A DNA stretch of 64,000 nucleotides, taken from NCBI RefSeq assembly GCF_000026545.1, contig NC_011601.1; one strand, 5' to 3'. Positions 31,522-33,991 of the stretch are shown here, piece after piece. The notes under the pieces are model-generated. The model was not told the DNA's origin and did no database searches. It saw nothing but the letters and a program-made list of their open reading frames with translations. The stretch's first letter is position 1; each line of letters begins with the position of its first letter. This DNA comes from Escherichia coli O127:H6 str. E2348/69 (lineage in GTDB: Bacteria; Pseudomonadota; Gammaproteobacteria; Enterobacterales; Enterobacteriaceae). The translations under genes were made by a program, and so were the position numbers.

Positions 31522-33250
31522 TCAACTCAACGCCCCCATAATCTTCAACTCCAGCTCGTCCGGCACTTCGTTATACGACAGCACATGCAGCCCCGGCGCA
31601 AACAACCTTGCGTAGCGCGCCAGCAAGGGGCGCAGCTGCGGCGGCACCAGCAGCACTGGATCTTTCCCCGCCGCTTTCATCTGTTCCTTCACCTGCGGCA
31701 TCGTGATCTGAAACTGGTTGAGCATATTCGGGTCCACCGGCACGCTATCGAGCATCACTTTGCCGGCCTGTTGCGCCTGATTCACCACGTTGGTCAGCAG
31801 ATTTTCCAGCTCATTATTCAGCGTATACACCGTCAGCTCCTGCTTGCGAACGAACGGATGGGTTATGCTGCGCCGCAGCGCCAGGCGCACATCGGCCGCC
31901 AGCAGAATATGATCTTTAGTCACCGCACTACTGGCGACCAACACGGTGGCGATGGTGACGATATCGCGCAGGGAAACGCCTTCAGTCAGTAGCGCCCGGT
32001 ACACTTTCAGCAACTAGCTGTAATTGAGCGCCGCGCTCAAATCTTCCGCCAGTCGCGGTGCCATCGACGACAAACGGTTATGCAGCTGAGTAATATCGTC
32101 ATAGTTAAACAAATCAGGAATATAGCTGCGCACAATCTTATTCACATGGGTGGCAATTACGCTGGCGCTGTCGATCACCTGATACCCCATATTCAGCGCC
32201 TTCGCTTTCTGCGCGGGCTGAATCCAGGTGACCGGCATCCCGTACGCCGGGTCGTTCCCCAGCACGCCGTCTATCTCGCCGTAGGTTTCGCTGGAGGGCA
32301 GGGCCATCAGTTTATCTGCCGGAATATCCGCTTCATCAGCCTTAATGCCGTTGATGAAAATGGCGTACTGGCTGGGCTTGAGGCGGAAGTTTTCCCGAAT
32401 GCGGATCTCCGGCAGCAGCACGCCGTTGCCGTCAGAAATCACCTGCCGCACGCCGCGAATCCGCTGGGTGAGCGGGTTACCCTGTGCTTTGTCCACCAGC
32501 GCCACCAGCTTGTAGCCGAGGCTTAAACTGATGGGCTCGATCAGCGGAATGGTTTCCCAACTGACCTGTTGCTCGCTGGTTTCGGTGATGGTTCGGGTCA
32601 GCGTTTCGAGGCTTTTCTCCTCCGCCTCCGCCGCCTGCGGCTGTTTGCTCATCCGCCAGCCGGTAAAGCCAAGCAGGGCGCTGAACAGCAAAAACGGCAG
32701 GTGCGGCATCCCCGGCACCACCGCCAGCACAAACATAATTCCGGTAGCGGTGTAGAGCACCGACGGGCTTGCCAGCAACTGGTGGCGCACGTCATGGGCA
32801 ATATCGCCATTATCGCTGACGCGGGTGACGATAATCGCCGCTGCGGTGGAGAGCAGCAGGGAAGGGATCTGTGCCACCAGTCCGTCGCCGATGGTCATCA
32901 ACACATATTGCTGGAAGGCGGCGTCGGCGCTCAGGTTGTATTTGAAGATCCCGATACAGACGCCGCCGATCAGGTTGATCGCCAGAATCATCATCCCGGC
33001 GATGGCGTCTCCGCGCACAAACTTCGATGCCCCGTCCATCGCACCGTAGAAATCGGCCTCGCTGGCAACATCTTTACGCCGGGTTTGCGCCTGCGCCTGG
33101 TTGATCAATCCGGCGTTAAGATCGGCGTCAATCGCCATCTGTTTGCCGGGCATCGCGTCCAGGGTAAAGCGGGCAGAAACCTCGGAAATACGCTCGGCCC
33201 CTTTGGTGACGACAATAAAGTTGATAGTGAACAGCGTCAGTAAATCCGAG
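31522..33250 (-). pseudogene. lfhA: Flag-2 lateral flagellar export protein FlhA homologue remnant (N-terminally deleted, in-frame TAG)
   Basis: FlhA-like sequence ([22 protein letters not shown]) runs from about 33250 to 32017; TAG at 32014-32016 interrupts, FlhA-like C-terminus continues 32013..31522. Confidence 0.7.
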
Positions 33251-33991
33251 CGTGAAAGCATTATCGCCGCGCTGCACGGGCAGTCGATTTTCAATGGCGG
33301 CGGGCTGTCGCCGTTAAATAAAATCAGCCCGACGCATCCGCCGAAACCTGCCACCGTGGCGGTGCCGGAAGAGACGGAGAAAAAAGCGCGCGACGTCAAC
33401 GAGAAAACGGCGCTACTGAAGAAGAAGTCCGCCACTGAGCTTGGCGAGCTGGCGACCAGTATCAACACCATCGTCCGCGATGCGCATATGGAAGCCAATC
33501 TGGAGATGGAGATTGTTCCGCAGGGATTACGCGTGCTGATTAAAGATGACCAGAACCGCAATATGTTTGAACGCGGCAGCGCGAAGATTATGCCGTTCTT
33601 TAAAACGCTGCTGGTGGAACTCGCGCCGGTATTCGACTCGCTCGACAACAAAATTATTATTACCGGGCATACCGATGCGATGGCCTATAAAAGCAATATC
33701 TACAACAACTGGAACCTTTCGGGTGACCGCGCGCTTTCGGCTCGTCGGGTACTGGAAGAGGCCGGGATGCCGGAAGATAAAGTGATGCAGGTGAGCGCAA
33801 TGGCGGACCAGATGCTGCTGGACGCGAAAAATCCGCAAAGTGCGGGTAACCGGCGCATTGAGATTATGGTGCTCACCAAAAGCGCGTCCGATACGTTGTA
33901 TCAATATTTTGGTCAGCATGGGGATAAGGTGGTGCAGCCGCTGGTGAAAAAGCTGGATAAGCAGCAGGTGCTTTCGCACCGAACGCGTTAA
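33251..33991 (+). pseudogene. lafU: Flag-2 MotB-like LafU remnant (OmpA-like C-terminal domain retained)
   Basis: OmpA/MotB-like C-terminal domain (IIITGHTDAMAYKSNIYNNWNLSGDRALSARRVL); no N-terminal TM segment; abuts lfhA remnant. Confidence 0.6.

What the first reader, a model, noticed from the sequence alone, without database searches (positions are those of the whole stretch)
31522..33991. Flag-2 lateral flagellar deletion scar: lfhA and lafU remnants joined head to head
An FlhA-like sequence on the minus strand ([17 protein letters not shown]...) lacks its N-terminal membrane domain and carries an in-frame TAG at 32014-32016 where FlhA homologues have Gln. It abuts, near 33250, a plus-strand MotB/OmpA-like C-terminal domain (LafU) with no N-terminus. 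The two genes converge on a single deletion junction, the signature of the ancestral Flag-2 cluster excision. The six-frame ORFs 32014..33651 and 33101..33991 are artefactually extended across the junction.
Basis: partly seen in the sequence, partly recalled or inferred. Interest (0 to 1): 0.45.

Follow-up and report, generated by a model that had tools for sequence, protein, structure and literature searches.

The report
Known Flag-2 flagellar deletion scar
This is the well-documented scar left in most E. coli when the roughly 35 kb second (lateral) flagellar gene cluster was lost; it is ordinary here, although the same break point turns up unchanged in several other bacterial genera, which is not explained.

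Summary
The window is E. coli E2348/69. Positions 31522-33225 (- strand) are codons 131-697 of the Flag-2 flhA paralogue lfhA. Positions 33224-33991 (+ strand) are codons 53-307 of the motB paralogue lafU. They meet head to head at 33220-33225, not at about 33250. Against an intact locus, 35,012 bp are missing. RefSeq and K-12 already annotate this, and the scar is described in papers read here, which credit Ren et al. 2005. The scar is contiguous in 4,072 of 5,426 complete E. coli genomes. The TAG at 32014-32016 is real but occurs only in the three E2348/69/O127:H6 genomes; 5,049 genomes carry CAG. LfhA loses only its first 130 residues, not its whole membrane domain. Beyond the brief, the same junction, to the nucleotide, occurs in Citrobacter, Kluyvera, Atlantibacter, Cedecea-like strains and Ewingella. 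There the remnants are mostly still open and nearly identical to intact genes of the same species. I read this as one old junction allele whose flanks are overwritten by gene conversion. Recurrent precise excision is not excluded.

The parts
31522..33225 (-). lfhA' remnant. It covers codons 131-697 of the Flag-2 FlhA paralogue (567 codons plus the natural stop at 31522-31524) and has no 5' end or promoter of its own.
   Evidence: Ungapped alignment to intact lfhA L002 1182-3007 at 94.7% nt identity. Translation compared with the intact LfhA. NCBIfam TIGR01398 profile positions 118-677 only, with scores of 492 and 80 bits against a cut-off of 772. RefSeq note: 'internal stop; incomplete; missing N-terminus'.
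32014..32016 (-). In-frame TAG replacing CAG (Gln534 of LfhA). It is a nonsense mutation private to the E2348/69 lineage.
   Evidence: Five other E. coli alleles have CTG on the + strand, which is CAG on the - strand. A 41-nt query centred on the TAG allele finds only 3 of 5,426 genomes, all E2348/69 or O127:H6. The CAG control query finds 5,049 genomes.
33220..33225 (.). Deletion junction. GTTGAT comes from lfhA (intact lafU has GTGGAT). GAT at 33223-33225 is common to both genes, so the crossover lies within these 3 bases.
   Evidence: BLAST pieces overlap by 6 nt: window 31400-33225 matches L002 1182-3007, and window 33220-34100 matches L002 38014-38894. Three-way display of scar, lfhA side and lafU side.
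33224..33991 (+). lafU' remnant. It covers codons 53-307 of the Flag-2 MotB paralogue (255 codons plus a stop). It lacks the N-terminal cytoplasmic segment and the single membrane anchor, and keeps the linker and the OmpA-like peptidoglycan-binding domain. The frame is open in this strain.
   Evidence: Ungapped alignment to intact lafU L002 38014-38894. tblastn of LafU residues 53-299 on related scars. NCBIfam NF005273 profile positions 43-297 of 297. Pfam OmpA at residues 114-207.
33226..33229 (+). Two substitutions directly next to the junction: 33226 T>A and 33229 C>G. Both are synonymous in the lafU frame (ATT>ATA, GTC>GTG) and both are private to E2348/69.
   Evidence: All other scars and the intact allele read TGTC here. 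A query requiring this variant finds only the three E2348/69/O127:H6 genomes.
33226..33651 (-). Artefactual 5' extension of the six-frame ORF 32014..33651: 142 codons read antisense through lafU'.
   Evidence: ORF list. FlhA homology stops at 33225.
33101..33223 (+). Artefactual 5' extension of ORF 33101..33991, read antisense through lfhA'. The RefSeq lafU CDS (261 aa) starts inside it at the GTG at 33206.
   Evidence: ORF list. RefSeq CDS at locus 5807-6592, which is window 33206-33991. LafU homology starts at 33224.

Best explanation
This is the canonical Flag-2 deletion scar. An ancestral cluster of about 40 lateral-flagellum genes lay between the yafL side and dinB, with lfhA at one end pointing outward and lafU at the other end pointing outward. 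One illegitimate recombination event joined lfhA codon 131 to lafU codon 53 at a 2-3 bp microhomology (GAT). It removed both 5' ends, both promoters and everything between, which is 35,012 bp measured against strain CFSAN027350. What remains are two promoterless pseudogene fragments lying back to back.

In E2348/69 the lfhA' fragment has also picked up a private nonsense mutation, and there are two private substitutions at the junction.

Shown here: the collinearity, the exact break point, the missing interval, that the TAG is private, and the distribution of the scar.

Inferred: that the deletion was a single historical event. I read the junction as an old allele that persists in many Enterobacterales. 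Its flanks are repeatedly overwritten by homologous recombination with intact alleles of the same species. Such conversion tracts would naturally stop at the junction, because homology ends there. That would explain why the remnants still look like working genes.
For: - Identity and annotation: 100% match to E2348/69. RefSeq annotates an FlhA pseudogene plus lafU, and K-12 annotates both as pseudogenes at the same place.
- Break point and missing interval.
- Family matches cover only the 3' parts of the profiles.
- Distribution: the scar is contiguous in 4,072 of 5,426 complete E. coli genomes. The rest give split matches, as intact loci do.
- Literature: PMC6993521, PMC3032704 and PMC5369007.
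- The TAG and the junction substitutions are private to the lineage.
- Single origin, cross-lineage evidence: the junction is at the same nucleotide in 11 lineages, although the flanking LafU sequence differs even at the amino-acid level (IVNSVSKSE, IMGAVTEEE, ILSSVNQKE, IINAVTPKE).
- Single origin, microhomology evidence: the microhomology is nothing special. There are 449 lfhA/lafU 15-mer pairs with at least 11/15 matches, and 2,662 exact 10-bp direct-repeat pairs inside the cluster. Chance recurrence at this one site is therefore very unlikely.
- Overwriting of flanks, between scars: divergence between scars is mostly synonymous. Within E. coli, dN/dS is 0.02-0.08 at dS 0.05-0.3. Between genera, dS is saturated.
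- Overwriting of flanks, scar against intact: scar remnants are nearly identical to intact genes of the same species, with 0/1704, 6/1704, 16/1704 and 32/1704 mismatches.
- Haplotypes switch at the junction. E2348/69 and 377323_2f differ by 1 nt on the left and 42 nt on the right.
- The remnants do decay: E2348/69 TAG, E. albertii frameshift, Z1323CEC0019 lafU' nonsense, and many shortened ORF variants.
Against: For the scar itself there is no evidence against.

For the 'single old junction plus gene conversion' part:
- Among 15 E. coli scars, nucleotide diversity does not fall near the junction. It is 3.4% and 3.2% in the flanking 100-nt windows, against 3-7% elsewhere.
- ST131 strains SE15 (scar) and JJ1886 (intact) have no mismatch over 2,559 nt on the left and 8,304 nt on the right of the junction.
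- Scar Z1323CEC0019 equals the in-silico deletion of intact CFSAN027350 apart from 2 nt.

These three results are what fresh, precise deletions would give. Under my reading they require donors of the same haplotype, or conversion tracts that end exactly at the junction. Keeping such a polymorphism across two families (Enterobacteriaceae and Yersiniaceae) is also demanding. I could not read Ren et al. 2005.
Confidence: 0.97

Rival explanations
1. The deletion is not one historical event. It is a recurrent, precise excision: some site-specific or structure-directed process repeatedly joins lfhA codon 131 to lafU codon 53 in different strains and genera.
For: - The same junction lies in locally native sequence in 11 lineages, with no foreign patch next to it.
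- There is no dip in diversity at the junction among E. coli scars.
- Scar and intact pairs differ only by the 35 kb segment: SE15 against JJ1886 with 0 mismatches in 10.8 kb, and Z1323CEC0019 against CFSAN027350 with 2 of 2,470 nt.
- The break points sit at matching positions of a short motif shared by both proteins: LfhA F-I-I-L-M-I-I-N and LafU F-M-T-L-W-I-V-N. I read this from the sequences.
Against: - No recombinase-type site is evident. Only 2-3 bp are shared in direct orientation, and the retained lafU half-site is not conserved between genera.
- The microhomology is far weaker than thousands of alternatives in the cluster.
- The shared motif lies in inverted orientation, which would favour inversion rather than deletion.
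- PMC5369007 reports that a published ST131 phylogeny (Ben Zakour et al., which I did not read) interpreted the change in that clone as an insertion of Flag-2 by recombination.
Confidence: 0.2
2. The truncated lfhA' and lafU' are not dead. They are kept by selection as a two-gene module with some new role, which is why they stay open and evolve mostly at synonymous sites.
For: - Both frames are open from the junction to the natural stop in 9 of 11 lineages and in most of 15 E. coli scars.
- dN/dS between scars is 0.02-0.3, even where synonymous sites are saturated.
- RefSeq calls lafU' a CDS.
Against: - In this very strain lfhA' carries a nonsense codon.
- Other disruptions exist: E. albertii frameshift, Z1323CEC0019 lafU' nonsense, many shortened or internally deleted variants, and A. 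hermannii ORFs of 437-483 aa.
- The two closest scar and intact pairs differ by 3 changes in all, 2 of them nonsense.
- Selection on the remnants would not explain why they are nearly identical to intact genes of the same species.
- LafU' lacks its membrane anchor and LfhA' lacks residues 1-130, which I infer to span three and a half membrane segments, and neither has its own promoter. The promoter scan was uninformative.
- An apparent scar-only clade in Ewingella turned out to contain full-length members.
Confidence: 0.05
3. The two fragments are chance ORFs or an assembly artefact unrelated to flagellar genes.
For: None found.
Against: - E-values are 2.6e-147 (FlhA) and 3.8e-141 (LafU).
- Three independent E2348/69/O127:H6 assemblies are identical here, and 4,072 genomes carry the same arrangement.
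Confidence: 0

Closest known systems
E. coli K-12 lfhA (b0229, formerly fhiA) and lafU (b0230, formerly mbhA) pseudogenes, the Flag-2 deletion scar attributed to Ren et al. 2005 (J Bacteriol 187:1430) in PMC3032704 and PMC6993521
   Same: Same two gene fragments, same head-to-head arrangement, same junction to the nucleotide, and dinB on the lafU' side as in K-12.
   Different: - About 95% nt identity only.
- E2348/69 adds a private TAG in lfhA' and two private substitutions at the junction.
- Next to lfhA', K-12 has rayT and E2348/69 has hicAB.
Intact Flag-2 lateral flagellar loci of E. coli (042 and W in the literature; CFSAN027350 and ST131 JJ1886 examined here)
   Same: Same chromosomal site. 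The lfhA 3' part and the lafU 3' part are collinear with the window.
   Different: The window lacks the 35 kb interior (flhB to motA/lafT), lfhA codons 1-130 and lafU codons 1-52.
lfhA-lafU deletions reported across Enterobacterales (De Maayer et al. 2020, PMC6993521: 531 of 4,028 strains)
   Same: Remnants of the two outermost Flag-2 genes occur mostly in taxa that also hold complete loci. I found the same in Citrobacter, Kluyvera, Atlantibacter, Cedecea-like strains and Ewingella.
   Different: The passages of that paper I read report presence of the remnants. They do not say that the junction is identical to the nucleotide, or that the remnants track intact alleles of the same species.

Membership tests
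Flag-2 lfhA-lafU deletion scar | The left fragment is the 3' part of the Flag-2 flhA paralogue (lfhA). | tested here: met
   Ungapped alignment to intact lfhA codons 131-697. TIGR01398 profile positions 118-677.
Flag-2 lfhA-lafU deletion scar | The right fragment is the 3' part of the Flag-2 motB paralogue (lafU). | tested here: met
   Ungapped alignment to intact lafU codons 53-307. NF005273 LafU at 469.7 bits, profile positions 43-297. Pfam OmpA.
Flag-2 lfhA-lafU deletion scar | The fragments abut head to head with nothing between them, at the same junction as in K-12. | tested here: met
   The junction GTTGAT|(T/A)GT(C/G)AAC is at the same position in K-12 and in 14 other E. coli scars.
Flag-2 lfhA-lafU deletion scar | The whole interior of the cluster is missing relative to intact loci at the same chromosomal site. 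| tested here: met
   35,012 bp are absent relative to CFSAN027350, with the same flanking genes hicAB, dinB and yafP. The ST131 pair SE15 and JJ1886 shows the same.
FlhA / FHIPEP export-gate protein (TIGR01398, PF00771), as a working gene | Full-length coverage of the profile, including the N-terminal membrane segments, and an uninterrupted frame. | tested here: not met
   Profile positions 1-117 are absent. Scores are 492 and 80 bits against a cut-off of 772.1. There is an in-frame TAG at 32014-32016. The intact reference scores 773 bits over positions 3-677.
LafU / MotB stator protein (NF005273), as a working gene | An N-terminal membrane anchor plus the C-terminal OmpA-like domain. | tested here: not met
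   The score is above the cut-off (469.7 against 383), but profile positions 1-42 are missing, and with them residues 1-52 including the hydrophobic anchor FADFTLAMMALFMTLW. The OmpA domain is present.
Site-specific excision system (integrase or recombinase type) | A conserved core site of several identical bases in direct orientation at both ends of the excised DNA. | tested here: not met
   Only GAT (E. coli) or AT (other genera) is shared. The retained lafU half differs between genera. In-register identity around the break is 11 of 20.

The most novel reading that the evidence does not exclude
Loss of Flag-2 may not be a one-off accident. It may be a recurrent, precise excision that joins the same two codons (LfhA 131 and LafU 53) in many strains and genera of Enterobacterales, which would imply an unrecognised directed deletion mechanism. 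The evidence does not exclude this. Scar and intact pairs differ by nothing except the 35 kb. The junction sits in locally native sequence in 11 lineages. Diversity does not fall at the junction.
Probability: 0.2. Interest if true: 0.7.

Novelty: already known. Interest (0 to 1): 0.22.

Why it matters
For this window it matters little. The region should be read as two pseudogene fragments. The six-frame ORFs, and the RefSeq lafU CDS that starts at 33206, should not be taken as intact genes.

The wider pattern may deserve a proper study. A deletion junction is shared to the nucleotide across at least two families of Enterobacterales, and its flanking pseudogene fragments do not decay as pseudogenes should. 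This could be a clear natural example of a presence/absence polymorphism kept alive by recombination that stops at a heterology boundary. It could instead be evidence of a directed excision process. Either way it bears on how large surface-structure gene clusters are switched in and out of bacterial populations, as reported for the ST131 clone (PMC5369007).

Tried and rejected
- Ren et al. 2005 (PMC545627) is not in the library. What it says is taken from papers that cite it.
- I thought the Ewingella-like remnants (P0092, P0093, P0095) were a clade known only as scars, which would have argued for selection on the remnants. Listing the cluster members showed full-length proteins of 694-697 aa in the same 90% clusters. 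The idea was dropped.
- I asked whether the junction variant ATAGTG of E2348/69 exists in any intact lafU, which would point to an independent deletion. It exists only in the three E2348/69/O127:H6 genomes.
- I asked whether the microhomology explains the site. It does not: it is weaker than hundreds of lfhA/lafU pairs and thousands of repeats inside the cluster.
- I looked for a patch of foreign (E. coli-like) sequence around the junction in Citrobacter, Kluyvera and other genera, as a sign of recent transfer. None was seen. Differences run to within 4-15 nt of the junction.
- I looked for reduced diversity near the junction among E. coli scars, as a sign of a recent sweep. None was seen.
- Singleton against shared polymorphisms did not separate young from old changes in a sample of 15.
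- The promoter scan near the junction gave 2 consensus matches against 0.6 expected. One lies inside lafU' and faces lfhA'. I treat this as uninformative.
- The GATC and the ATGATCAT palindrome at the lfhA break, and the inverted similarity of the two hydrophobic segments, were noted from the sequence. I judge them to be by-products of codon content, not evidence of a mechanism.
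Full report
**What the window is.** The region 31400-34100 matches E. coli E2348/69 (EPEC O127:H6) at 100%. RefSeq annotates a pseudogene at window 31522-33240 (- strand), 'flagellar biosynthesis protein FlhA; internal stop; incomplete; missing N-terminus'. It annotates a CDS 'putative lateral flagellar export/assembly protein LafU' at 33206-33991 (+ strand). hicAB lies to the left and dinB-yafP to the right. In K-12 MG1655 the same place holds the pseudogenes lfhA (b0229) and lafU (b0230) next to dinB.

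**Checking the observation.**
- The - strand frame 31522..33225 reads [36 protein letters not shown]... It runs to the natural C-terminus, with one in-frame TAG at 32014-32016.
- NCBIfam places the two pieces on FlhA (TIGR01398) profile positions 118-512 and 523-677. An intact LfhA covers positions 3-677.
- The + strand frame 33224..33991 hits the LafU model (NF005273) at positions 43-297 of 297, and Pfam OmpA.
- The six-frame ORFs 32014..33651 and 33101..33991 run past the point where homology ends, into the antisense of the neighbouring fragment. The RefSeq lafU CDS also starts 18 nt before true LafU sequence begins, at a GTG that lies antisense in lfhA'.

**Placing the break point.** I took an intact Flag-2 locus from strain CFSAN027350 (L002). 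Its lfhA is at 1304-3397 (- strand, 697 aa) and its lafU at 37862-38785 (+ strand, 307 aa), with about 40 flagellar genes between them.
- Window 31400-33225 aligns without gaps to L002 1182-3007. Window 33220-34100 aligns without gaps to L002 38014-38894.
- The two pieces overlap by 6 nt: GTTGAT in lfhA and GTGGAT in lafU. The crossover therefore lies in the shared GAT at 33223-33225.
- 35,012 bp are missing. LfhA loses residues 1-130 and LafU loses residues 1-52.
- From the sequence, the LfhA break falls inside the fourth hydrophobic segment (VVIGGNFVVGFVVFIILMI|INFIVV). The remnant keeps the FHIPEP loop, the later membrane segments and the cytoplasmic domain. This is an inference from the sequence and from the known eight-helix topology of FlhA.
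- LafU loses its only membrane anchor.

**The TAG.** K-12, 377323_2f, EC42405, 23CRST032 and the intact allele all have CAG at this codon.
- I used a 41-nt query centred on the variable base. Megablast's 28-nt word then has to span that base.
- The TAG version finds 3 of 5,426 genomes, all E2348/69 or O127:H6. The CAG version finds 5,049.
- The nearest relative, 377323_2f, has an lfhA' identical apart from this one base. The TAG is therefore a recent private mutation and not part of the scar.
- Two further private changes sit directly beside the junction: 33226 T>A and 33229 C>G.

**What is already known.** PMC3032704 states that in K-12 and B all that remains of Flag-2 are fhiA (the lfhA pseudogene) and mbhA (the lafU pseudogene), citing Ren et al. 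2005. PMC6993521 describes the deletion within lfhA and lafU in Escherichia and Shigella, with direct repeats at its ends. It reports remnants in 531 of 4,028 Enterobacterales strains, mainly in taxa that also have complete loci. In my search the scar is contiguous in 4,072 of 5,426 complete E. coli genomes. Most others give split matches, as intact loci do. The finding is correct and already known.

**Something that does not fit a simple dead scar.**
- Between E. coli scars, divergence is high and almost all synonymous: dS about 0.05-0.3 and dN/dS 0.02-0.08. There are no indels over 2.5 kb.
- Among 15 E. coli scars, only one lfhA' (this strain) and one lafU' (Z1323CEC0019) carry a stop, and one has a 6-bp in-frame deletion.
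- A codon-degenerate pattern across the junction found the same junction in E. albertii, Citrobacter sp. MGH106 and Kluyvera ascorbata. Those last two are only about 81% identical to E. coli, with differences running right up to the junction.
- Protein searches, followed by retrieval of contigs, added Atlantibacter, a Cedecea-like group ('Enterobacter sp. Ap-916'), the H16N7 group and Ewingella.
- In all 11 lineages the lfhA Ile131 codon is joined to the lafU Ile codon at the same nucleotide, although the adjoining LafU residues differ (IVNSVSKSE, IMGAVTEEE, ILSSVNQKE, IINAVTPKE). Both frames are open in 9 of the 11.
- Between lineages synonymous sites are saturated, while dN is 0.04-0.25 for lfhA'.

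**Testing explanations for that pattern.**
- Selection on the remnants is unlikely. Disruptions are common (this strain, E. albertii, Z1323CEC0019 and many shortened variants). The youngest differences include nonsense mutations. An apparent scar-only clade dissolved when the cluster members were listed.
- Each scar's lfhA' is nearly identical to an intact lfhA of the same species: 6 of 1,704 nt (H16N7), 16 of 1,704 (Atlantibacter), 32 of 1,704 (Ewingella), and 0 of 1,704 between intact CFSAN027350 and two E. coli scars.
- An in-silico deletion of the CFSAN027350 locus matches real scars at 99.8-99.9%.
- In ST131, SE15 (scar) and JJ1886 (intact) show no mismatch over 2,559 nt to the left and 8,304 nt to the right of the junction. 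PMC5369007 reports that a published ST131 phylogeny interprets this change as an insertion of Flag-2.
- Diversity among E. coli scars does not fall near the junction.
- The microhomology is unremarkable: 449 lfhA/lafU 15-mer pairs match at least as well, and the cluster holds 2,662 exact 10-bp direct-repeat pairs. Chance re-use of this one site in many lineages is therefore very improbable.

**My reading.**
- The junction arose once and has persisted as an allele alongside intact loci. Homologous recombination with intact alleles of the same species keeps overwriting the remnants. Because homology ends at the junction, conversion tracts would tend to stop exactly there.
- That accounts for four things:
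  - native flanks in every genus;
  - haplotype switches at the junction (E2348/69 against 377323_2f: 1 nt different on the left, 42 on the right);
  - the absence of a diversity dip;
  - the mostly synonymous variation.
- The rival is recurrent precise excision, which fits the scar and intact pairs even more simply. However, it has no visible mechanism: no conserved core site, and only 2-3 shared bases.
- The identification of the feature in this window as the known Flag-2 scar is essentially certain.

**Verdict.** Observation confirmed. Interpretation supported, with three corrections: the junction position, the extent of the LfhA truncation, and the fact that the TAG is private. The feature is already known and ordinary for E. 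coli. The cross-genus identity of the junction, and the failure of the remnants to decay, are the only parts that merit follow-up.

Noticed in passing
L011 2066-2105, L012 469-508, L013-L018 (junctions); window 33220-33225: The lfhA'/lafU' junction is at the same nucleotide in 11 lineages: E. coli, E. albertii, Citrobacter, Kluyvera, Atlantibacter, Cedecea-like strains, the H16N7 group and Ewingella. The flanking sequence is native to each lineage, and both frames are open in 9 of the 11.
   Followed up: partly
L032 (SE15) 32946-35415 against L033 (JJ1886) 856-2949 and 40540-41463: The ST131 strains SE15 (scar) and JJ1886 (intact Flag-2) have no mismatch over 2,559 nt to the left and 8,304 nt to the right of the junction. 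They differ only by the inserted or deleted block.
   Followed up: partly
window 33206-33991: RefSeq annotates lafU' as an ordinary 261-aa CDS starting at a GTG that lies antisense in lfhA'. K-12 marks the same fragment as a pseudogene. The first 6 codons are not LafU sequence.
   Followed up: yes
window 30790-31417 (- strand): A hicB-hicA toxin-antitoxin pair lies between yafL and lfhA', where K-12 and many other strains have rayT (yafM). Both arrangements occur among scar-bearing and intact-locus strains.
   Followed up: no
window 28932-30733 and 34062-35566: Compared with K-12, E2348/69 has no dinJ-yafQ between dpaA (yafK) and yafL. It also has no yafN-yafO between dinB and yafP, and dinB and yafP overlap by 4 nt.
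   Followed up: no
window 35757-37474: An intact rtcB-family RNA ligase gene and prfH (release factor H) are present here. In K-12 the same place holds the pseudogenes ykfJ and prfH.
   Followed up: no
L031 1985-2770; L007 about 4651-4669; L029 about 1860: Other scars show their own decay. Z1323CEC0019 has a nonsense codon in lafU'. The E. albertii type strain has a frameshift near LfhA codon 447. FHI_NMBU_03 has a 6-bp in-frame deletion in lfhA'.
   Followed up: partly
L009 and L010: Two metagenome-assembled genomes labelled Clostridiales and Collinsella carry contigs that are 94-96% identical to the E. coli lfhA' scar. These are probably contaminating E. coli contigs in those bins.
   Followed up: no
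L014, L017, L018 against L013, L015, L019, L021: An NlpC/P60 (yafL-like) gene is next to the scar or to intact Flag-2 in several genera, but on different sides. It is downstream of lafU' in the Cedecea-like and Ewingella loci and beside the lfhA 3' end in Atlantibacter and H16N7. The wider neighbourhoods differ between genera.
   Followed up: no
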